In this document: piece after piece, positions 12,386 through 23,714 of the stretch | Position numbering within the stretch: position 1 is the first letter of the stretch | Layout: the number at the start of each line of letters is the position of its first letter | Assembly: GCA_963813125.1 (NCBI GenBank) | Contig: CAWEZA010000054.1 | Span: 1-64,000 of the forward strand | From: an uncultured delta proteobacterium | Lineage (GTDB): Bacteria; Desulfobacterota; Syntrophobacteria; Syntrophobacterales; Syntrophobacteraceae | DNA: 64,000 nt | Direction of reading: 5' to 3' | Notes under the pieces: generated by a model | The model's database searches: none | Told to the model about the DNA's origin: nothing | The model's input: the letters and a program-made list of their open reading frames with translations, nothing else | Made by a program: the position numbers and the translations under genes

Positions 12386-14030
12386 GTGAAACAGCGCCTC
12401 AATGAAACAAATGAAAGGAGGAGGGGGCAAATCCCCGCCGGCGACAAAATGATCCGTCTCATGAAAAATGCGTCATACGAGGTGCAAGCGCTTTTTGAGT
12501 GGATCGAATACATCCTGGAGGCGCGCAAAAACAAAAAGAGCGGAAAACCGCCGCCAATCCGGGCAGGCAGGGAGTATCGCGAGGCGCTCAAAGCCATCAA
12601 TGATGGCGAACCGATTATATTCGTATCGGGAAGGGCTGGAACGGGCAAGACGTGCTTGATCGAATTTCTTCAGAAAAAACTCTCCCAACGAAACATTGCG
12701 ATCGTTGCGCCAGCCGGAGTCGCCGCCCTTAACTTGCCGCGGGCGCACGATACACTCCTTCTTTCGATTCAGCCGCGATATCGACCTCAAAAGAATACAG
12801 ACGGTCAAGAACAAAAAACAAAGGCTACAATATGAAAAGCTCGATCTGCTCATCGTAGATGAAGTCTCCATGGTGCGAGCGGACTTTGATGGACGCTATG
12901 GTGAAATTCCTCGAACTCAATGGGAGGCAGCCCGGCGCTTCGTTCGGCGGCGTTCAGGTGGTCCTGATCGGCGATCTTTTACAGCTTCCACCCGTCGTAA
13001 AATGGAAGAATAAGCTTGACAAGGAAAAGTTTGATAAGAAAAACGGGGTGTACGCCAGCAGGTACTTTTTCGGCGCAAAATTTTTGGAGGGTTCAAAGGA
13101 GAGTCCAACACCCTACTTCATAGAGCTTAAGCAAAATCGACGACAGAAAGACCGTAAATTCCGAGAGTGCCTTGATAGCATACGGATCGCGGAAGGCCAC
13201 ACCGAGGCAGTCGAGACAATCAACGCGAGTTGCCACCGAAGGGACAACCCGGACGGAAGCACTCTCGTTCTGACATACACCAGGAAAGATGCCGCGAGAA
13301 TTAATAACGATAAAATCCATGAGTTGGCCAAGCCCCGACAACCGGCGCTATTTCAGGCACAAACAGGAGGCAAATCCCGCTGCAGGACGACAATGAGGGA
13401 GACGAAGAGAACAGACACCCATATTGTCCCGCACCGAGGGAGCTAAAGCTCGCAAAGGGGGCGCCGATCATGTTTATTCTAAACGATAAAGACGGAAAAT
13501 GGGTCAACGGCACCCTGGGAGTGGTCGAATCAGTCCCAAGCGACTTTGGCCCTCCGATCGTCGTAGTGCTAAAGGACCGCCCCACGGTGAAGATAGAGGT
13601 TGAACCTGAAACATGGTGGTTTGACAAAGAATACTCCCCCATTGAACCCGAAGACAGTGAAAAGTTTGATACCTATAAACAGTATCCAATCATGCTGGCA
13701 TGGGCCGTTACAATACATAAGGCCCAAGGCCTTACGCTAGACAGCGTCGGGATTGACCTGGGCAAGGTAAAGGATAAGGGCGACAAGGAGCAAGAAAGGG
13801 CAATCTCGGAGAAAGGTCTATTGTATGTGGCTCTCAGCCGCTGCAGGTCCCTCGCTGGCATAAAACTGGAGAACAAGATCAAGGACTCGGATATCAAGGC
13901 AAGCGAGGAGGCATGTGAGTATTACTGCAAGCTCAGGGCTTACCAATCACAGCGATCCGCCCGATTTAAGCCCTACTGTCCCCCCTCTGCCAAGGCTCAT
14001 CGCGTGAAGGACTCGCCGATAAATCTCAGG
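12386..14030 (+). pseudogene. PIF1/RecD-like helicase disrupted by three frameshifts (ORFs 12386.., 12696.., 12859.., 13470..)
   Basis: Walker A GRAGTGKT, Walker B LLIVDEVSMV, GGVQVVLIGDLLQLPPV and the C-terminal AVTIHKAQGLTLD...YVALSRCR motifs fall in four different frames (2, 0, 1, 0). Confidence 0.75.
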
Positions 14031-14037
14031 CGTTCGG

Positions 14038-14207
14038 TGAATGTACAAGCCGCGAAAGCAAGGAGGCGATTCTCTGAAATTATCGAGCGGGCGGGCTGCG
14101 GACGAGAGCGCATTGTCCTGACAAGGCGAGGCAAGCCGCGCGCAGTCCTCGTATCGATCGAGGATCTCAAGTTACTCGAAGATCGTGTTGACAGTGATAA
14201 TGAATGA
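14038..14207 (+). CDS. Phd/YefM-like antitoxin N-terminal domain (possibly truncated, orphan)
   Basis: RFSEIIERAGCGRERIVLTRRGKPRAVLVSIEDLKLLED matches the Phd/YefM core (ITRRGKPVAVLVS). It reads in frame with the helicase tail, and a GTG start at 14038 was assumed. Confidence 0.4.
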
Positions 14208-14946: not shown

Positions 14947-16218
14947 TCAAACCGGCCCCTCCGCCTCCCCACGCTCCACAGTCTGCCCCGCGCCCTCCGC
15001 GATCTCTCCTATCGCCGTTCCCTCCGGAGTGGACAGCATGGCCTGCAGGGCCATGGCGGCGTTGCGCTTCTGGTCCGGGCAAAGATGCGCGTATCTCTCC
15101 GTCTGCTCGATCTTGCCGTGCCCCATCAGCTCCTTTATCGTCTGAAGGCTAGCTCCCGATATCGCAAGCCAGCTCCCGAAGGTGTGCCGCAGGGAATGGA
15201 AAACGAGCTTGTGCCGCCTGTCCCTGACTCCGGCGTTTAGCCCCAGGTCCTCGACGGCTTTGAAAAAACTCCCGGAAACGCTTTTTATCTTCTTTCCGCC
15301 GCGGTCGGTGAAGACGTGTTCGTCCGGGCGGCCGCCCTCGGCGAAGACAACGGCCAGCTCGTCGGTCATGTACGCCTTCCGCGCGAGATCCCCCTTCGGC
15401 CCCCGCGAGTAGTCCGGCCCGAGGATGTGGATCGTCCTGTCTTTGACATCGACGTCGGCCCACCGGAGGTTCCAGATTTCTCCGGCGCGCATGCCCGTGT
15501 GAAGCCCCACGAGGCAAATTTCGTAAAGTCTCTGGCTGTACATCTGGACGCGCTGCAGCAAAAGGTGCGCCTCGCTTCGGCTAAGATATCTCAGCCTGTT
15601 CGTGTGCCGGGTGCTGGGGAACTTAATCCCCCGGGTAGGGTTTTCCCCGTGAAAGTCACCCCACGCGATCGCCTTGTTGATCACTTCGCGGGCAAGTCCC
15701 AGGACGTGCTTTATCGTTTGCGGGGAAAGCTTCTGCTTTGTGAGACCGCTCTTTATCCGCTCGAAGTGAAACGGGCTTATCTCCGAGAGCGCGAGATGCC
15801 CCAGGGCGTCCTTGAGATGCTTCTCATATCTCACCTTATCATCCCCGAAGCTGCGCCGGTTCACCTGCGCCCACTCGTAAAACTTCTCCCACGCCTCGGA
15901 AAAGGGCAGCTCCTTTTTCTCCCCGGGCAGCTCCTCTCCGTGCCTCATGGCCCGGATTCTCTCCGCGCGGATGTGCCCGGCCATCTGCGGCGTATAGCCC
16001 TCGCTCTGCCACCCGATCTTTTCCCACTTGAGCTTTCCGGCCCGCGTCTTGTAGCAGATGTCGTAGCACTTGTCGGGCTTTCCCAAATGCCTCCTCACCG
16101 CCGACTCCCGGACAAACACCCCGGTCCTGTGAGTCTTTTGCCTCGTCCCCGCCGCCTTGACCTCTCCAGCCTCTTTCACCGGCGCTCCCTTCCTTCGAAA
16201 AAAAATCGCACCCGTCAC
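14947..16218 (-). CDS. int: Tyrosine-type site-specific integrase
   Basis: The C-terminal catalytic region HSLRHTFGSWLAISGASLQTIKELMGHGKIEQTERYAHL gives the R...H-x-x-R...Y signature. The gene is adjacent to a tRNA 3' fragment. Confidence 0.9.
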   Translation of the reverse strand: MTGAIFFRRKGAPVKEAGEVKAAGTRQKTHRTGVFVRESAVRRHLGKPDKCYDICYKTRAGKLKWEKIGWQSEGYTPQMAGHIRAERIRAMRHGEELPGEKKELPFSEAWEKFYEWAQVNRRSFGDDKVRYEKHLKDALGHLALSEISPFHFERIKSGLTKQKLSPQTIKHVLGLAREVINKAIAWGDFHGENPTRGIKFPSTRHTNRLRYLSRSEAHLLLQRVQMYSQRLYEICLVGLHTGMRAGEIWNLRWADVDVKDRTIHILGPDYSRGPKGDLARKAYMTDELAVVFAEGGRPDEHVFTDRGGKKIKSVSGSFFKAVEDLGLNAGVRDRRHKLVFHSLRHTFGSWLAISGASLQTIKELMGHGKIEQTERYAHLCPDQKRNAAMALQAMLSTPEGTAIGEIAEGAGQTVERGEAEGPV

Positions 16219-16696: not shown

Positions 16697-16742
16697 ACGG
16701 CCTTTCACGCCGACGACACCGGTTCAAATCCGGTTGGGGACG
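16697..16742 (+). other. tRNA-Glu(UUC) 3' fragment (anticodon arm to acceptor 3' strand), probable att core/attR
   Basis: CGGC-CTTTCAC-GCCG forms an anticodon stem-loop with U33 and anticodon TTC. A T-arm ACCGG-TTCAAAT-CCGGT is followed by TGGGGACG, matching E. coli tRNA-Glu CUUUCAC...GGGGACGCCA. No D-arm or 5' acceptor strand is present upstream. Confidence 0.7.
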
Positions 16743-16753
16743 CTAGTAAGATC

Positions 16754-16791
16754 AAGGGGTTAAGCTGAGAAGCTTGACCCCTTTTTCTTTT
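16754..16791 (+). terminator. Rho-independent terminator (13-bp stem, GAGA loop, T-tract)
   Basis: AAGGGGTTAAGCT-GAGA-AGCTTGACCCCTT followed by TTTTTCTTTT. Confidence 0.7.
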
Positions 16792-17285
16792 GGGGGGGAC
16801 TTTTCAGGATAACCGGGACCGAGCGAAGCTCAATATGCCTTCCTGACGCGACTTGTGCCCTCTGGAGTAAAAGTTTCCATGGGCGAGTATCGGGGACGAT
16901 GATTTTGCCCGTCCTCTCCATTCATATTTTGAAATCAAAGATAAAACACTCCCTTTTCGCGTCAGGCTATGTATCTTTCGCCGACTGTAATCGCGCGGGC
17001 TAAAAAATAATGCCAAATATCCCCCCAAATGAGGCCATTACCCATATCAATCTACATGATCGGTCTTATATTACACTTGGTTTTATAAACCCTTCGTCTG
17101 GAGGAGCCGAAAGTCCTTATCCCTGAATCCTTATGCCGGAAAGGAGGGACCGATTGGAGTGAAGGCGTATGGGGTCTCGAACGCGGTCGGAGACCAAGCT
17201 TGAACCAATGAAGATGTTCAAGACGGAATCCGTCCGTATAGTCAGGTCCCTGGTTTACCGAATTGCCCGGAAAGGAGTGGATAAA

Positions 17286-17585
17286 ATGAGAAAAGCATTG
17301 GTTGTCGCGATCGCTGTTTCACTGCTCCTTATCGGCGGCGGCTTTGCGACCGCACAGGCGAATGGCTCCTGCAACATCAACTGGTCCGCCCTGTCTCCCT
17401 GCAACTGGCACGCGCCCAACCTGTGCGCGTTCCATTGTGACGCGGTGGCCGCGGAGCCCACGCCTCCTGCTGCGGAAGTAACTCCACCGACGCAGGAAAA
17501 ATGTTCACTTTGCAACATCAACTGGTCCGCCCTATCTCCCTGCAACTGGCACTGGCCGCATTTTTGCCCGGTCTGTGGCAGCTAA
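17286..17585 (+). CDS. Secreted Cys-rich small protein with two near-identical tandem repeats (CNINWSALSPCNWH)
   Basis: The RBS is GGAAAGGAG. The signal peptide is MRKALVVAIAVSLLLIGGGFATAQA. The mature ~75-aa region has 10 Cys, and the two ~43-nt DNA repeats differ at one position. Confidence 0.5.
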   Translation: MRKALVVAIAVSLLLIGGGFATAQANGSCNINWSALSPCNWHAPNLCAFHCDAVAAEPTPPAAEVTPPTQEKCSLCNINWSALSPCNWHWPHFCPVCGS

Positions 17586-17848
17586 GTCGGCGTGGGATGC
17601 TGAATTGAAGGGGGGTGACAATGCAGATTGAAACGTCGGACTTCCTTCCGATAAAACACCGGAAGGAAGTCCTGTTTTTGTGCCGTCCCGGCTTTATCGG
17701 GCCTGTAATAGAGAATGCTCCCCGCCCCGCCCATAACACACCCCGGCTATATCATTCGAGTACGGAGCTGTCCGGTACGCTCAGGATTGCCGCCAGGTCC
17801 TCGGCCGTCCCTATGTGTCGGCCCGGCATCCGGCAGCGGGTCCCCGGT

Positions 17849-18862: not shown

Positions 18863-19249
18863 TTAAAACAACGGGTTATCGATACGCTTCAATTCCCGAA
18901 TATGGAGGCCGACGCTTTCATTGTTCAAAATGGCCACATTTTCAGCACGCCCCACAACGATAACTTTTGAGTTGGCGGATGGCGTCGTGCCACTGGTCAC
19001 TACCGCGATCTTACTGCCGTCATCACTTAAAAAGTAGAGCTTCAGGTTTACCAGAGGGATCTTGGTGATTCCCGAAACCGTTCCTCTTACCTTGACCTGC
19101 CTGCCGTCATACGCCGACGGGTTGTTCAAGATATCTTTTACGCTGGTGAACCCAAAAGGCAGGTACTGGCAGCCGGCGCTCACCAGCAGGAGTGAAAAGC
19201 TCAAGAACATGATGATTCCGCCTGTCCAGGCGAAAGCTTTCCGTTTCAT
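18863..19249 (-). CDS. Lipoprotein, possibly OB-fold (BOF/YgiW-like)
   Basis: The signal/lipobox is MKRKAFAWTGGIIMFLSFSLLLVSAGC, and GRQVKVRGTVS is an OB-fold-like segment. Confidence 0.45.
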   Translation of the reverse strand: MKRKAFAWTGGIIMFLSFSLLLVSAGCQYLPFGFTSVKDILNNPSAYDGRQVKVRGTVSGITKIPLVNLKLYFLSDDGSKIAVVTSGTTPSANSKVIVVGRAENVAILNNESVGLHIRELKRIDNPLF

Positions 19250-19472
19250 CCAACCCCCCATCCTGATCCGCCCCCGTGCGTTTCTACGTCTGGGGCTGAC
19301 CGTCCGTCCCGACCAGGCTACGACATTTATAATGATAGTAATCTAAATTTCCCCATTCACAAGTACCTGAAATTTCCAGGGGCGGCAATTCAAAATTGCC
19401 CGGGGAAAGCCACCCTGACCACTCGTAATAGGGGGCGTGGGGCAGAAAGATGGCGCTCAGGAACCTCGAAAA

Positions 19473-20348: not shown

Positions 20349-20510
20349 ATGGAGATTAAAGAAAGAAGCGAAAGCGCGGGCGGGAACATGGTCCTCGAAA
20401 GCGAGTCTTACACTGTGATGTCTCTATGCGCCGGCTTGGCCGTTGCTGAGGTCGGCGACGGAAACTGTTTCTCCTGTGAAGGCTATATCACGGTTCCCTG
20501 CAGTTGCTGA
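20349..20510 (+). CDS. RiPP-like precursor peptide (53 aa, 5 Cys in the C-terminal half)
   Basis: The RBS is AAGAGGGAG, 5-8 nt before the ATG. The peptide is MEIKERSESAGGNMVLESESYTVMSLCAGLAVAEVGDGNCFSCEGYITVPCSC. It sits immediately upstream of two rSAM/SPASM genes. Confidence 0.6.
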   Translation: MEIKERSESAGGNMVLESESYTVMSLCAGLAVAEVGDGNCFSCEGYITVPCSC

Positions 20511-20632
20511 CGCCATGTAACGCAGTACCCGACCGATCTCCGGCAGGGCGGGATTGGGATGCCGTGCTGTTTGCTCTTCGAGCATGAGCAAGGCGCCATA
20601 TTTCATTACCAGAGCTGAGTAAGTGCACGGTC

Positions 20633-20676
20633 GGCGTGAGTCCTTCCAGTGTGGAGGACTCACGCCATCTCTTTTT
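20633..20676 (+). terminator. Intrinsic terminator/attenuator between the precursor and maturase genes
   Basis: GGCGTGAGTCCT-loop(TCCAGTGTGG)-AGGACTCACGCC followed by ATCTCTTTTT. Confidence 0.6.
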
Positions 20677-20785
20677 GCGTCTCCGATGGATTATCTCCAC
20701 GTATTCTCCGTCCGCTGCCTCAGGTAAATAAGAATAAAGGAAAGAAGAAACGGATTCTCACGGCCCCCTCGAGGTTACGAAGAAT

Positions 20786-22228
20786 TTGATAGAGTTGGAA
20801 CGCGGCGGCGATGAGTTGCTGCTTGTGAACTCTTTCCACATGCTTCCGCTATACGTGGCTCGCGGCAAAAAGGGTGTGAAGCGCGTACTCTCACAGGTCG
20901 GGGGCAAAACGTTTGAAGAGCTCCTGGCCTTATTCTCCGGGGACACGGACCTCATCCGAATGCTCAGGGACCATCGCATCCTTGTCGATTCCTCCCGCGA
21001 GAAGGAGCGGTGTGAGCGCACGGGCATCGACGCGGCTTTAGCCGCGCCACCTCTGCCCAAGAACAAGATGACCGTTTTCCTCCTGATTACTGAATCATGC
21101 AACCTTGGTTGTGTATATTGCCTTAACGGCTCGGGGACTTATCGCAAAAGCCCGGGCGCGCTCATGAGCCCCCAGGTCGCCATGCGCAGCATCACGGCGT
21201 GCCTGGATCAACTTGGCGCCGGCGGCACCCTTCAAGTGACCTTCTTTGGGGGCGAACCGCTCCTTAATTGGCCCCTTGTAAAAGAGGTGATAAAGCAATG
21301 CGAGCAATTACCCGGGCAGACGTATGGCGACAAGAAGATTGCATATCATATAACCAGCAATCTGACCACATGCCCTCCCGATCTGATCGAAACGCTAAAA
21401 AAGCATAAAATCACCGTCTTATCCGATATCGACGGGCCCCCGGAAATTCATAACCGTTGCCGTCCCTTTCTGCGCGGCGGAGCTTCTTATGCCCGGAGTG
21501 CGGAAACTATACGCAGGTTGGTAGACGCCGGAATACCGGTAGCTCTGCGCGCTACGCTTACTTCCGTCAATCAGGACTGCGTCGCTGATATTGCCGCCCA
21601 CCACAAGGCGCTCGGCGCCGGTAATTGCGGCCTTGTGCCGGTCTGCCAAATCAATTCCGATCGGCAATACCTGCCTGAGTGGCTTCTGCCCGATCCGGAC
21701 AGGATTATCGCCGGGGTGGTGAATGTATATCGCAGTGGATTATGGGAAAGGACGAAGCTCTTCCCGTTCAACCAATATGTTTTGAAATTGCGTCCCGGCT
21801 CGCGGCAGACTGTGGGCTGCGCGGCTCCCTCGGGCGCCGTTCCGGTCATCAACGCCAACGGAGACGTTTACCTGTGCGCCTATCTTGTCGGCCAGGAGAA
21901 GTTCCGCTATGGAACGTCGTCAAACGCATGGGACCGGCGGTTGCTCGAAGAAACGTCGGCCTCACTGCATGTCGATAATCTCCCGGGGTGTAGCGCATGT
22001 CCCTGGCGATACGCGTGCGGAGGTGGATGCCCGGTGATGAGACTGGGGTTTTACGAAGTGGAAAAAAACCCTGTGGCCGCGGAATATGGACGGAGAATCG
22101 TCTGCGATTTTAGCAGGGCAGTTTTGACCGAGTGTCTTTGGGACGTGGCGGACAATGTGTCGGCCTCCATTGCCGAGGGGCGGGGGCAACACCGTGGACC
22201 GGCGCTCGACCCAACGCTTTTTTGCTGA
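20786..22228 (+). CDS. Radical SAM/SPASM-domain peptide-modifying enzyme with an N-terminal RRE-like domain (paralog 1)
   Basis: The CX3CX2C motif is SCNLGCVYC. The C-terminal SPASM cysteines are CAAPSGAVPVINANGDVYLCAYL...GCSACPWRYACGGGCPVM. The N-terminal ~90 aa (LERGGDELLLVNSFHMLPLYV...TFEELLALF...ILVD) is PqqD/RRE-like. The only canonical start is a TTG with a GAGGT SD. Confidence 0.85.
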   Translation: MIELERGGDELLLVNSFHMLPLYVARGKKGVKRVLSQVGGKTFEELLALFSGDTDLIRMLRDHRILVDSSREKERCERTGIDAALAAPPLPKNKMTVFLLITESCNLGCVYCLNGSGTYRKSPGALMSPQVAMRSITACLDQLGAGGTLQVTFFGGEPLLNWPLVKEVIKQCEQLPGQTYGDKKIAYHITSNLTTCPPDLIETLKKHKITVLSDIDGPPEIHNRCRPFLRGGASYARSAETIRRLVDAGIPVALRATLTSVNQDCVADIAAHHKALGAGNCGLVPVCQINSDRQYLPEWLLPDPDRIIAGVVNVYRSGLWERTKLFPFNQYVLKLRPGSRQTVGCAAPSGAVPVINANGDVYLCAYLVGQEKFRYGTSSNAWDRRLLEETSASLHVDNLPGCSACPWRYACGGGCPVMRLGFYEVEKNPVAAEYGRRIVCDFSRAVLTECLWDVADNVSASIAEGRGQHRGPALDPTLFC

Positions 22229-22274
22229 AACAAAAGAGGAGTTCCCCTTCTCGGACTCTGCATCGGGGTACCCC

Positions 22275-23714
22275 ATGAGGGCTCAAGTGTTGCTCGAATT
22301 GACCAAAAACCTGATCTCCCTGGAAAGGGGCCGCGACGAGTTGCTCCTGGCAAACTCGTTCCACATGATGCCTCTATATGTTAAGCGGGGCAGGGAGCGT
22401 ATAAAGGGCGTGCTCGACCATGCATCCGGCGGACGCACGGCAGAAGAGTTGGAAGCGGCATTTCCGGGGGATGTCGGCCTCATCGAGCTCCTTCGCGATA
22501 ATCGCATTTTGGTCGACAAGTCATTTTACCCCGACGGGTTCGATCTCGCAGATATCGCGGCGGAAAAGATCCAGTCCGGCCCCCGGGAGAGGATCACGCT
22601 TTATCTGCTGCTTGGCGAATCCTGCAACCTGGACTGCATCTACTGCCTGAACGGACCCAAGACATACCGGAAAAATCACGCAGAGGGGATGGGCGCGCGG
22701 ACTGCCCTGAGAAGCATCGAGAAATGCCTGGAGGAACTCGTTCCCGGAGGCGTGGTGGAAGTCGGTTTTTTCGGGGGCGAGCCTTTACTTCACTGGCCGG
22801 TGGTCAAGCAGGTGATAAGCCGTTGCGAAAGTGAGATCGGGCCGGCAAACCCCGATAAAAAAATACGATATCACCTTACCAGCAATCTGACACTGTGTCC
22901 ACCAGACCTGGTCGAATGGGTGACACGCTACAAGATTACAATAGTCTGCGGGATCGACGGTCCACCGGAGATTCACGACCGATGCCGGGTCTACCGCGGA
23001 GGCGCCCCGTCTCATGCGCGCAGCGCGGACACTATACGCCGGCTTGTGCAGGCCGGAGTACACCCCACCTTGAGGGCAACGATCACTTCAGCCAACCATG
23101 ACCGGTTGCACGAAGTAGCTGCGCACCACACCCTGCTTGGAGCCGCCGCCTCGCTGTTTATCCCGGTACGCCCCATTAATTCGGACAGCGAGTTTTTCCC
23201 GGAACAGATCCTGCCCGACCCGGAAAAAATCATTTGCGCCGCAGTCGAACTCGGTCTCGGCGATTCTTCGGGCAAGGCAAACCTATTTCCCTTCAATGAT
23301 TTTTCAGCCGATTTACGCCCCGGCGCCCGATATGTAGTCGCCTGCGGCGCTCCCCGGGGGGCCACTTACGTGGTGCGGCCCAACGGCGACATTTATCCCT
23401 GCATCTATCTCGTCGGCCAGAAACAGTACAGGCTCGGAAATGTGACCGGCATGCTGGATCGTAGGCCCCTTGAAGAAATGTTTACCGCTTTACACGTGGA
23501 TAACCGCGAAGATTGCCGGACTTGCGCCTGGCGGTATGCTTGCGGCGGCGGCTGCCCGGTCATGAATCTTGCGCGCATAGGCGGCGCCGAGAAGAGCGCC
23601 CGTGTGGTGGAGTACAGCCGCAGGATCACCTGCGACCTGAGCCGGGCGATCCTTTCCGACGCCCTCTGGCGTCTCGCCGACCGGGGCTTAAGCGGAGTTG
23701 CCGGACAAGTTTGA
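22275..23714 (+). CDS. Radical SAM/SPASM-domain peptide-modifying enzyme with an N-terminal RRE-like domain (paralog 2)
   Basis: GESCNLDCIYCLNG, CGAPRGATYVVRPNGDIYPCIYL, and CRTCAWRYACGGGCPVM. It is ~45% identical to paralog 1 over its full length. Confidence 0.85.
   Translation: MRAQVLLELTKNLISLERGRDELLLANSFHMMPLYVKRGRERIKGVLDHASGGRTAEELEAAFPGDVGLIELLRDNRILVDKSFYPDGFDLADIAAEKIQSGPRERITLYLLLGESCNLDCIYCLNGPKTYRKNHAEGMGARTALRSIEKCLEELVPGGVVEVGFFGGEPLLHWPVVKQVISRCESEIGPANPDKKIRYHLTSNLTLCPPDLVEWVTRYKITIVCGIDGPPEIHDRCRVYRGGAPSHARSADTIRRLVQAGVHPTLRATITSANHDRLHEVAAHHTLLGAAASLFIPVRPINSDSEFFPEQILPDPEKIICAAVELGLGDSSGKANLFPFNDFSADLRPGARYVVACGAPRGATYVVRPNGDIYPCIYLVGQKQYRLGNVTGMLDRRPLEEMFTALHVDNREDCRTCAWRYACGGGCPVMNLARIGGAEKSARVVEYSRRITCDLSRAILSDALWRLADRGLSGVAGQV

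What the first reader, a model, noticed from the sequence alone, without database searches (positions are those of the whole stretch)
17286..17585. Secreted Cys-rich peptide with a nearly identical internal tandem repeat (recent duplication)
After a Sec signal peptide, the mature region holds two repeat units (CNINWSALSPCNWH...C..C) whose ~43-nt DNA differs at one position. This indicates a recent intragenic duplication. It has 10 Cys in ~75 aa and resembles a disulfide-rich secreted peptide, possibly bacteriocin-, lectin- or metal-binding-like. I recognise no family. It lies 3 kb from the rSAM cluster within the same island.
Basis: seen in the sequence. Interest (0 to 1): 0.6.

Follow-up and report, generated by a model that had tools for sequence, protein, structure and literature searches.

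The report
Secreted SPCNWH-repeat peptide, new family
This is a real gene for a small exported cysteine/tryptophan/histidine-rich peptide from an undescribed family found only in uncultured Syntrophobacteraceae; it is not tied to the nearby radical-SAM enzymes, and its function is unknown (my best guess is metal binding in the cell envelope).

Summary
The ORF 17286-17585 (+) is real. It has an RBS, a conserved hairpin terminator, dN/dS 0.26 against a close relative, and a textbook Sec signal peptide (MRK, 19 uncharged residues, AQA|NG).

The 74-aa mature peptide has 9 Cys, not 10. It holds two C..LSPCNWH..C..C modules joined by a Pro/Ala linker. The 42-nt DNA cores of the modules differ at one base, as reported.

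It belongs to an unannotated family of about 100 clusters at 50% identity. All members come from Syntrophobacteraceae or 'delta proteobacterium' MAGs, with several paralogs per genome. Members share a very conserved signal peptide and 1-4 copies of L-[SN]-P-C-N-W-H-[FLW]-P-S-x-C. There is no Pfam, NCBIfam or PDB match, and AlphaFold gives no confident fold.

None of 51 other family loci (~166 kb of which are metagenome DNA) has a radical-SAM gene. No maturase recurs near the gene. The window's rSAM genes have their own 53-aa Cys-rich precursor. The RiPP link is therefore unsupported.

The two-module layout is shared by orthologs at 59-91% identity. The near-identity therefore reflects selection plus gene conversion, not a recent duplication.

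The most likely role is a stand-alone envelope peptide that uses Cys/His ligands. This is inferred, at about 0.35. Interest is moderate.

The parts
17286..17585 (+). Coding sequence of the 99-aa precursor (stop codon included)
   Evidence: ORF and translation. Conserved in L026, L001 and L004. dN/dS 0.26 against L026.
17271..17277 (+). Ribosome-binding site AAAGGAG, 8 nt before the ATG
   Evidence: Read from the sequence. The element CCGGAAAGGAG is invariant in six aligned relatives.
17286..17360 (+). Sec-type signal peptide, aa 1-25 (MRKALVVAIAVSLLLIGGGFATAQA), predicted SPase I cut after AQA
   Evidence: Feature count. The AQA site is present in 90 of 123 family members. Only 1 of 75 nt differs from L026. 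AlphaFold predicts a helix at residues 3-19, the only confident segment. No SignalP run was possible.
17370..17438 (+). Module 1, aa 29-51: C-NINWSALSP-C-NW-H-APNL-C-AFH-C (4 Cys, 2 His, 2 Trp)
   Evidence: Translation. Motif logo built from 136 copies.
17439..17501 (+). Pro/Ala/Glu/Thr-rich linker, aa 52-72 (DAVAAEPTPPAAEVTPPTQEK)
   Evidence: Translation. It is the fastest-evolving part, with 10 of 63 nt differing from L026. Similar linkers occur in L011, L015, L017 and P0034.
17502..17582 (+). Module 2, aa 73-99: C-SL-C-NINWSALSP-C-NW-H-WPHF-C-PV-C-GS (5 Cys, 2 His, 3 Trp)
   Evidence: Translation. Unit alignment.
17370..17432 (+). DNA repeat, copy 1 (63 nt)
   Evidence: the repeat finder family D1.
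17511..17573 (+). DNA repeat, copy 2 (84% identical over 63 nt; 41 of 42 identical over the first 42 nt)
   Evidence: the repeat finder family D1. Unit distance matrix.
17129..17172 (+). Conserved hairpin in the 5' leader: stem CCTTATGCC / GGCGTATGG enclosing a loop that holds a second GGAAAGGAGG (SD-like) element
   Evidence: RNAalifold on six sequences from three lineages. Six of the 9 stem pairs keep pairing through changes on both sides. The upstream DNA is conserved but has indels, so it is non-coding.
17638..17680 (+). Terminator-like hairpin (13-bp perfect stem, 9-nt loop) followed by TGTTTTTG
   Evidence: Inverted repeat I1. In L026 the outermost pair changes from G-C to A-T on both sides. 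The region 17605-17681 is also conserved in L001 and L004.

Best explanation
The gene is a self-contained unit: a conserved leader, the CDS and a hairpin terminator. It encodes a Sec-exported peptide.

After signal peptidase I cuts at AQA|NG, a 74-aa acidic peptide should reach the periplasm or envelope. It consists of two ~23-27-aa modules on a flexible Pro/Ala linker. Each module carries 4-5 Cys, 2 His and 2-3 Trp, arranged as (C-x2-)C-x9-C-N-W-H-x4-C-x2-3-C.

It is one member of an undescribed multigene family confined to uncultured Syntrophobacteraceae. The family is defined by an unusually conserved signal peptide and 1-4 copies of the motif L-[SN]-P-C-N-W-H-[FLW]-P-S-x-C. Family members are stand-alone genes and are not substrates of a neighbouring maturase.

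My preferred mechanism is that the unmodified peptide uses its reduced Cys thiolates and His imidazoles as multivalent ligands. Candidates are soft metal ions (Zn, Cu(I), Ni, Co, Cd) or metal-sulfide species in the anoxic envelope, a 'beads-on-a-string' periplasmic chelator or buffer.

The two modules are kept nearly identical by purifying selection and intragenic gene conversion.

Shown: gene reality, family membership, motif architecture, lack of linkage to rSAM, and the age of the two-module layout. Inferred: export, the cleavage site, the reduced-thiol state, and metal binding.
For: Gene reality:
- RBS, conserved terminator and dN/dS 0.26.

Export:
- Canonical n/h/c regions, with the AQA site in 90 of 123 relatives.

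Family:
- 66 hits with the word-index profile search.
- 100 representatives among 1.84 billion clusters at 50% identity.
- 22 genome loci, all Syntrophobacteraceae or 'delta proteobacterium' MAGs, with up to three loci in one MAG (MAG_BA69 and MFD02138.bin.2.17), and three genes in tandem within locus L014.
- 29 further metagenome loci.
- Motif logo from 136 copies.

Stand-alone status:
- A census of 125 + 50 neighbouring ORFs shows no recurrent rSAM, MNIO, or peptidase/ABC exporter.
- tblastn with both window rSAMs finds nothing in any family locus.

Free-ligand idea:
- The Cys count is odd in 58 members and even in 66, so there is no bias toward fully paired disulfides.
- His follows C-N-W in 86 of 136 motifs.
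- Flanking CxC/CC pairs recur in the linker subfamily.
- No stable fold is predicted without ligands: pLDDT 49 for the whole peptide and 53 for a single module.

Homogenisation:
- Unit distances.
Against: - No metal-related gene (transporter, sensor, chaperone) recurs next to family members.
- Cys is about 9% of mature residues. From general knowledge that is far below metallothioneins.
- The invariant Asn and Trp next to the Cys, and the extreme conservation of the signal peptide, are not explained by simple chelation. They look more like a recognition motif for an enzyme or partner.
- His is replaced by S, N or R in 38 of 136 motif copies.
- There are no experimental or expression data. All carriers are uncultured.
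Confidence: 0.38

Rival explanations
1. RiPP precursor. The repeated SPCNW(H) motif is the recognition and modification site of a maturase, for example a radical-SAM/SPASM enzyme making Cys thioether or Trp crosslinks. The maturase would be either the pair 3.2 kb downstream or one encoded elsewhere in the genome. The peptide is then exported by Sec, as bufferins and HxsA are.
For: - A short invariant motif in variable copy number, a periodic Cys, and an over-conserved N-terminal region.
- Two rSAM/SPASM peptide-maturase-like genes at 20786-23714.
- Published precedents for signal-peptide-bearing substrates of cytoplasmic maturases: bufferins (PMC11626156) and HxsA (PMC13128918).
- Several paralogs per genome could share one distant maturase, as in prochlorosins (my own knowledge, not checked here).
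Against: - None of 51 other family loci carries an rSAM homolog, and no other maturase class recurs.
- In the window, three genes separate the peptide from the rSAMs, two of them on the opposite strand.
- The rSAMs have their own RBS-preceded 53-aa Cys-rich ORF (20349-20510). Its 85%-identical homolog sits 36 nt upstream of the rSAM in L027, and no SPCNW gene lies within 10 kb upstream or about 8.6 kb downstream.
- There are no NCBIfam RiPP-precursor hits.
Confidence: 0.12
2. Disulfide-stabilised secreted effector (bacteriocin-like, toxin-like or signalling peptide) from a rapidly diversifying gene family. The conserved secretion cassette would be paired with a hypervariable Cys-framework mature region, as in conotoxins or plant NCR peptides.
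For: - The signal peptide is far more conserved than the mature part: 1 of 75 nt against 10 of 63 nt in the linker.
- Motif number and spacing change between close relatives.
- There are tandem paralogs (L014, L029) and fresh internal duplications, such as L017 with a 129-nt period at 96% identity.
- In L026, unit 2 accumulated 3 amino-acid changes while unit 1 stayed identical.
Against: - There is no preference for an even Cys count.
- No immunity, export or receptor gene recurs nearby.
- Sec export in a diderm reaches only the periplasm.
- Overall dN/dS is 0.26, not above 1.
- AlphaFold gives no compact fold.
Confidence: 0.2
3. Envelope or membrane-interface peptide. The Trp/Pro-rich modules bind the membrane interface, or an envelope partner involved in lipid homeostasis or envelope-stress sensing.
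For: - In other subfamilies the gene is followed directly by an MlaC-like gene (L013, L028, L029, L038, L046) or by Ysc84/SYLF plus a PLD-type synthase (L005, L006, L007, L009, L010).
- 49 of 124 members end in Y, F or W.
- One subfamily has sigma-54 promoters and adjacent enhancer-binding response regulators.
Against: - None of these neighbours, tails or promoters is present at the window gene or its closest relatives (L001/L004, L011/L015/L017).
- The window peptide ends in CGS.
- The association is by position only.
Confidence: 0.13
4. Spurious or decaying ORF beside an integrated element, with no function.
For: It lies next to an integrase, a broken PIF1-like helicase and a tRNA remnant. 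The public annotation gives no name.
Against: Conserved CDS with dN/dS 0.26, an intact RBS and terminator with a compensatory change, and more than 100 homologous clusters with the same architecture.
Confidence: 0.02

Closest known systems
Bufferins (BufA1/DUF2282 and BufA2/BUF_6/12Cys), Sec-exported periplasmic RiPP metallophores (PMC11626156)
   Same: Small precursors with a genuine Sec signal peptide. Conserved Cys in the exported part, sometimes as a duplicated 6/12-Cys layout. A periplasmic destination. A proposed role in binding soft metals.
   Different: Bufferins are always encoded with an MNIO (DUF692) enzyme and a DUF2063 partner, which turn Cys into thiooxazoles, and they have a predicted fold. 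Here no such genes recur, there is no DUF2282 or NCBIfam hit, and no confident fold. The SPCNWH motif is unrelated.
HxsA of the HXS antiphage system (signal peptide, five His-Xaa-Ser repeats, matured by the paired rSAM enzymes HxsB/HxsC; PMC13128918)
   Same: A signal-peptide-bearing protein with a short repeated motif. The window happens to carry two adjacent rSAM/SPASM genes.
   Different: There are no HxS repeats and no peptidoglycan-binding domain. The gene is not adjacent to the rSAMs. The window rSAMs score 97 bits against the HxsB model, whose cut-off is 370. The family never co-occurs with rSAMs.
Ranthipeptide / SCIFF / Cys-repeat precursors of rSAM-SPASM maturases
   Same: Cys-rich short peptides with periodic Cys motifs.
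   Different: Those precursors have cytoplasmic leader peptides and sit next to their maturase. In this window that description fits the 53-aa ORF at 20349-20510, not the SPCNWH peptide.
Bacterial metallothioneins (SmtA/BmtA type) and CCHC zinc-knuckle-like mini-domains (comparison from my own knowledge)
   Same: A small size, a Cys plus His ligand set, CxC/CC pairs, and a C...C-x2-H-x4-C spacing that recalls CCHC knuckles.
   Different: Those proteins are cytoplasmic, richer in Cys and poor in Trp. There is no sequence or profile similarity. Metal binding here is untested.
Conotoxin / NCR-type gene families (evolutionary pattern only; my own knowledge)
   Same: A highly conserved signal peptide with a hypervariable Cys-framework mature region, many paralogs, and frequent duplication or conversion.
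   Different: Those are eukaryotic. There is no homology, and no evidence of positive selection or toxicity here.

Membership tests
Sec/SPase I-exported protein | Positively charged n-region, an uncharged hydrophobic h-region, and small residues at -3/-1 | tested here: met
   MRK (+2). 19-residue h-region, mean KD 2.32, no charges. AQA|NG. No twin-arginine motif and no lipobox. The site is conserved in 90 of 123 relatives as AQA.
Sec/SPase I-exported protein | Prediction by a trained classifier (SignalP) or experimental export | not testable with these tools
   No SignalP tool and no experiment. AlphaFold models residues 3-19 as the only confident helix.
SPCNWH-repeat peptide family (defined here) | Conserved signal peptide M-[RSK]-K-x-L-I...SGG-x-F-S-A-Q-A plus at least one L-[SN]-P-C-N-W-H-[FLW]-P motif | tested here: met
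   The window peptide is the query of the family. Profile hits reach E 1e-38 to 1e-8. It holds two motif copies.
rSAM/SPASM-modified RiPP precursor | Precursor gene adjacent to, and co-oriented with, its maturase | tested here: not met
   There is a 3.2-kb gap holding Uma2 (+), a lipoprotein gene (-) and a membrane-protein gene (-).
rSAM/SPASM-modified RiPP precursor | Co-occurrence of the precursor family with the maturase family across genomes | tested here: not met
   0 of 51 other loci have an rSAM homolog. The rSAM1 homolog in L027 has no SPCNW gene within 10 kb upstream or about 8.6 kb downstream.
rSAM/SPASM-modified RiPP precursor | The maturase lacks another, better-placed substrate | tested here: not met
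   The 53-aa Cys-rich ORF 20349-20510 has an RBS. It is conserved at 85% identity and lies 36 nt upstream of the rSAM in L027.
rSAM/SPASM-modified RiPP precursor | Post-translational mass shift on the native peptide | not testable with these tools
   This needs mass spectrometry.
Bufferin (MNIO-dependent) | Encoded with MNIO (DUF692) and DUF2063 genes | tested here: not met
   Neither family appears among the 25 most frequent Pfam families listed for each set of neighbouring ORFs (125 and 50 ORFs). Neither is present among the window neighbours that were scanned.
Bufferin (MNIO-dependent) | Sequence membership in DUF2282 or BUF_6/12Cys | tested here: not met
   No Pfam hit for 54 members at E<=1. 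No NCBIfam hit for 5 members.
HXS system effector HxsA | His-Xaa-Ser repeats, a peptidoglycan-binding domain, and adjacent hxsBCD | tested here: not met
   The sequence has no HxS repeats or PG-binding domain. The rSAMs are below the HxsB cut-off.
Metallothionein-like metal binder | Stoichiometric thiolate metal binding | not testable with these tools
   Only the ligand pattern and the Cys-parity statistics are available.
Integron gene cassette | An IntI-type integrase and attC sites flanking the ORF | tested here: not met
   The integrase scores 39 bits against the integron-integrase model, whose cut-off is 265. No attC-like element was seen. The downstream hairpin is a plain terminator.
Tandem (head-to-tail) repeat | Adjacent copies detectable by TRF | tested here: not met
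   TRF finds nothing at 17200-17700. The copies start 141 nt apart with a unique linker.

The most novel reading that the evidence does not exclude
The SPCNWH-repeat peptides are substrates of an unlinked, so far unidentified maturase that recognises the over-conserved N-terminal region and the invariant P-C-N-W core. It would install a new crosslink, for example a Cys-Trp (tryptathionine-like) or Cys-Asn bond, before Sec export. That would make them a new class of Sec-exported, multi-core RiPPs with precursors scattered around Syntrophobacteraceae genomes.
Probability: 0.1. Interest if true: 0.8.

Novelty: new variant of a known kind. Interest (0 to 1): 0.4.

Why it matters
If the family does bind metals or metal sulfides in the envelope of strictly anaerobic, sulfidogenic syntrophs, it would be a Cys-based, unmodified counterpart of periplasmic metallophores such as bufferins. 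The habitat is peat and anoxic soil, where trace metals are locked up by sulfide.

Independently of function, the family is a clean bacterial example of three things together. It has a conserved secretion cassette with a hypervariable Cys-motif payload. Motif copy number changes often. Modules evolve in concert within a gene.

The practical result for the scan is negative but useful. The peptide should not be counted as part of the neighbouring radical-SAM RiPP cluster, which has its own precursor.

Tried and rejected
1. Link to the rSAM cluster: rejected.
2. Recent duplication: rejected in favour of an old two-unit layout plus gene conversion.
3. The longer 138-aa ORF from ATG 17169: rejected, because the upstream region has frame-breaking indels and the ATG is lost in L026.
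4. Known families: no hit in Pfam (E<=1 over 54 members), NCBIfam or PDB sequence profiles.
5. Structure route:
   - AlphaFold with a 54-row family alignment gave pLDDT 49.
   - A 25-row single-module alignment gave pLDDT 53.
   - Both are too poor for a meaningful fold search, so none was run.
6. N-glycosylation sequons (the N-W-S / N-L-S runs look suggestive): not enriched, 68 observed against 57 +/- 6.6 in shuffles.
7. Sigma-54 promoter in the window: CTGGTTTACCGAATTGCC has GG and GC 11 nt apart instead of 10, in the window and its relatives, so it was not accepted. Genuine -24/-12 elements exist only in another subfamily.
8. Integron cassette idea: the integrase is not IntI-like.
9. Riboswitch or known RNA in the leader: no Rfam hit even at E<=10.
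10. Other copies in the window: none.
11. The first attempt at search for related loci, with the full family alignment, failed because it lacked a conserved stretch. A motif-centred alignment worked.
12. A literature search found nothing on this family.

Full report
**Observation.** The ORF 17286-17585 (+) encodes MRKALVVAIAVSLLLIGGGFATAQA|NGSCNINWSALSPCNWHAPNLCAFHCDAVAAEPTPPAAEVTPPTQEKCSLCNINWSALSPCNWHWPHFCPVCGS. AGGAG lies 8 nt upstream of the ATG. A perfect 13-bp hairpin followed by a T-run lies 52 nt downstream of the stop.

The two CNINWSALSPCNWH units are encoded by 42-nt stretches that differ at one synonymous base. Similarity continues to 63 nt at 84%. The copies are not head-to-tail. 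They start 141 nt apart around a unique linker, and TRF finds nothing.

**The gene is real.**
- A metagenome relative (L026) is 88.6% identical in DNA across 16928-17726. It encodes a 91%-identical protein.
- More distant orthologs (L001, L004) are 59-61% identical.
- dN/dS against L026 is 0.26. The signal-peptide codons show 1 difference in 75 nt, against 10 in 63 nt for the linker.
- The terminator stem carries a two-sided G-C to A-T change in L026.
- The upstream ~160 nt is conserved but has 1-nt and 3-nt indels. It is therefore non-coding, and the 138-aa ORF on record (P0001) is an over-extension.
- The N-terminus meets every classical Sec/SPase I criterion. I could not run SignalP.

**Family.** A single-sequence search found only 6 relatives. 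A profile search found 66. An exhaustive HMM search of 1.84 billion cluster representatives found 100 at E<=1e-3. All but two spurious repeat proteins are 43-201 aa long.

All members share a strikingly conserved signal peptide, M-[RSK]-K-x-L-I-x-x-I-A-L-S-L-V-L-V-S-G-G-x-F-S-A-Q-A. This is followed by 1-4 copies of a short motif whose logo, from 136 copies, is C-L-S-x-L-[SN]-P-C-N-W-H-[FLW]-P-S-[LCF]-C.

The window peptide belongs to a subgroup in which complete modules, (CxC)-x7-9-C-N-W-H-x3-4-C-x0-2-C, are strung on Pro/Ala-rich linkers. Other examples are L011, L015, L017, P0034, P0045 and P0051.

A back-translated motif scan of one genome per species (185,579 species) returned 22 loci. 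All are from Syntrophobacteraceae or 'uncultured delta proteobacterium' MAGs, and up to three loci come from one MAG. One locus, L014, carries three genes in tandem. A scan of JGI metagenomes returned 29 more loci. No member has a Pfam, NCBIfam or PDB-sequence match, and the only names on record are 'hypothetical protein'.

**Context and the rSAM question.** I clustered ORFs across the loci. I also ran a Pfam census of 125 neighbouring ORFs (within 4.5 kb, 23 loci) and of 50 more ORFs, 45 of them from the metagenome loci and 5 from the window itself.

Neighbourhoods are subfamily-specific and mostly housekeeping:
- SecA-ArgJ upstream and AsrABC downstream (L011, L015, L017).
- PepN and DinB (L016, L019, L021, L022, L024, L025).
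- Acyl-CoA dehydrogenases (L001, L004).
- Sigma-54 enhancer-binding response regulators and PAS kinases upstream, with Ysc84 and a PLD-type synthase downstream (L005, L006, L007, L009, L010).
- An MlaC-like gene downstream (L013, L028, L029, L038, L046).

No radical-SAM, MNIO, peptidase/ABC-exporter or other maturase family recurs. tblastn with both window rSAM proteins hits none of the 51 other loci.

Conversely, the window's two rSAM/SPASM genes (20786-22228 and 22155-23714; best NCBIfam similarities are to PapB, SCIFF and QhpD-type maturases, all below cut-off) are preceded by an RBS-bearing 53-aa ORF. It spans 20349-20510 and ends in ...GDGNCFSCEGYITVPCSC. Its only homolog (85% identity) lies 36 nt upstream of the rSAM1 ortholog in contig L027. 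That contig has no SPCNW-type gene within 10 kb upstream or about 8.6 kb downstream. The rSAM cluster therefore has its own substrate, and its proximity to the peptide is coincidental.

**Island.** Left of the gene lie a tyrosine recombinase (14947-16218, -; not integron-type), fragments of a PIF1-like helicase fused to a Phd antitoxin domain, and a tRNA 3'-half remnant. The remnant is at 16700-16742 and scores 28.8 bits as a truncated hit against a gathering score of 29. ARAGORN finds no intact tRNA.

This looks like the right-hand att end of an integrated element, so the peptide gene is probably just outside it. The conserved 'module' shared with orthologs is 17126-17681, that is leader, CDS and terminator, set in quite different surroundings.

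**Repeat history.** All four orthologs have both units. Between the window and L001/L004, unit 1 differs at 5 of 39 nt (all synonymous) and unit 2 at 5-6. Within L001 the two units differ at 5, but within the window at only 1.

L026 shares the window's unit-specific CTA codon in unit 2. Its unit 2 then diverged by 5 more changes, while its unit 1 stayed identical to the window's.

The simplest history is an old two-module gene whose modules were homogenised by gene conversion in the common ancestor of the window and L026. Strong constraint on the motif followed. It is not a recent duplication.

Real recent duplications do occur elsewhere in the family:
- L017: 129-nt period, 1.9 copies, 96% identity.
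- L007: 30-nt period, 3 copies.
- L029: three modules.

**Structure.** AlphaFold with the family alignment is confident only for the signal-peptide helix (mean pLDDT 49). A module-only alignment gives pLDDT 53. The peptide is either disordered on its own or needs ligands, crosslinks or partners. I did not run fold searches on these models.

**Mechanism.** The following is shown:
- The gene is a stand-alone, conserved unit.
- The product has the features of a Sec substrate.
- The mature part consists of two Cys4-5/His2/Trp2-3 modules on a flexible linker.
- Family members carry odd and even Cys numbers about equally (58 against 66).

Exported proteins that rely on disulfides tend to have even Cys counts (my own knowledge of Dutton et al. 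2008, not checked here). The absence of that bias, the strictly anaerobic hosts, the C...C-x2-H-x4-C ligand spacing and the flanking CxC/CC pairs make reduced-thiolate/imidazole coordination of soft metals the most economical reading. I give this mechanism about 0.35.

It leaves unexplained why Asn and Trp next to the Cys are near-invariant, and why the signal peptide is the most conserved part of the protein. Those two facts keep alive three rivals:
- A trans-encoded maturase (RiPP), about 0.12.
- A diversifying disulfide-knotted effector, about 0.2.
- An envelope or lipid-associated role, suggested by the MlaC/Ysc84/PLD neighbours and aromatic C-termini of other subfamilies, about 0.13.

N-glycosylation sequons are not enriched.

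**Comparison with known systems.** It works most like a bufferin-type periplasmic Cys peptide (PMC11626156). However, it fails both defining tests for membership, namely MNIO/DUF2063 linkage and DUF2282/BUF homology. It also fails every defining feature of HxsA (PMC13128918) and of adjacent rSAM precursors.

It is best filed as the founding description of a lineage-restricted 'SPCNWH-repeat' secreted peptide family. That makes it a new variant within the broad kind 'small Sec-exported Cys-rich repeat peptides'.

**Verdict.** The two most exciting inferences, a fresh duplication and a link to the rSAM cluster, do not hold. Interest is moderate (0.4). The family is undescribed and has curious evolutionary behaviour, but there is no experimental handle and no genomic clue that pins down the function.

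Noticed in passing
window 17129-17172 and 17266-17279: The conserved 5' leader contains a 9-bp hairpin with covarying pairs. Its loop displays GGAAAGGAGG, a second copy of the element that forms the RBS (CCGGAAAGGAG). The same double arrangement occurs in L026, L001/L004 and L011/L015/L017. It resembles two-site CsrA-type translational control (my own idea). There is no Rfam match.
   Followed up: partly
window 16700-16742 (remnant), 16754-16783 (hairpin) and 14947-16218 (integrase): There is a tRNA 3'-half remnant with a UUC (Glu-like) anticodon loop. It scores 28.8 bits as a truncated hit, and ARAGORN reports no tRNA. It lies between a tyrosine recombinase gene and a strong terminator-like hairpin. 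This is probably the att end of an integrated element whose body lies to the left.
   Followed up: partly
window 20349-20510 (+), with 20594-20736: A 53-aa ORF with an RBS and a Cys-rich C-terminus (GDGNCFSCEGYITVPCSC) lies upstream of the rSAM/SPASM pair and is the likely cognate precursor. In L027 it sits 36 nt before the rSAM1 ortholog. Relative to L027, the window has an extra 143 nt (20594-20736) between precursor and rSAM1, and it has a second rSAM gene (22155-23714) that L027 lacks.
   Followed up: partly
L026 1-159 versus window 19177-19337; L026 166-964 versus window 16928-17726: In the closest relative, the start of the lipoprotein gene (window 18863-19261, -) is joined directly to the peptide's upstream region. 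The order there is X | peptide. In the window it is peptide - Uma2 - X. This could be a rearrangement, a tandem duplication or a circular junction. A 988-nt contig cannot resolve it.
   Followed up: no
window 12386-14207 (+): A PIF1/UvrD-like helicase is split into three consecutive ORFs (12386-12835, 12859-13446, 13470-14207). The last carries a Phd/YefM antitoxin domain at its C-terminus. This looks like a decayed mobile-element gene.
   Followed up: no
L005, L006, L007, L009: about 190 nt upstream of the peptide ATG: Canonical sigma-54 -24/-12 elements (GGCACAGAACTTGC and GGCATAAAACTTGC) precede the peptide genes of one subfamily. Sigma-54 enhancer-binding response regulators with PAS domains are encoded just upstream. 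Another subfamily (L016, L019, L024 and others) has TTGACA-N17-TACGTT sigma-70-like promoters.
   Followed up: partly
L013, L028, L029, L038, L046 (MlaC-like); L005, L006, L007, L009, L010 (Ysc84 + PLD): In two subfamilies, envelope-lipid genes lie immediately downstream of the peptide gene on the same strand. This hints at an envelope role that is not visible at the window locus.
   Followed up: partly
L016, L019, L022, L024, L051, L054; L049: In one subfamily a tRNA-Leu(taa) gene lies 300-600 nt upstream, transcribed divergently. In L049 a homolog of the window's integrase (32% identity) sits 1 kb upstream instead, which mirrors the arrangement in the window.
   Followed up: no
Family-wide (P0007-P0147), not the window peptide: Many members carry a low-complexity tail with [KR]-D-x-D-[KR] motifs. 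49 of 124 end in Tyr, Phe or Trp, although Tyr is only 2% of the composition. The window peptide lacks this tail.
   Followed up: no
L017 10133-10383; L014 9146-11592; L029 1826 and 4350: There is a fresh 129-nt tandem duplication of module plus linker (96% identity) in L017. L014 has three paralogs in tandem, and L029 has two paralogs 2.5 kb apart. Copy number of both modules and genes is clearly dynamic.
   Followed up: partly
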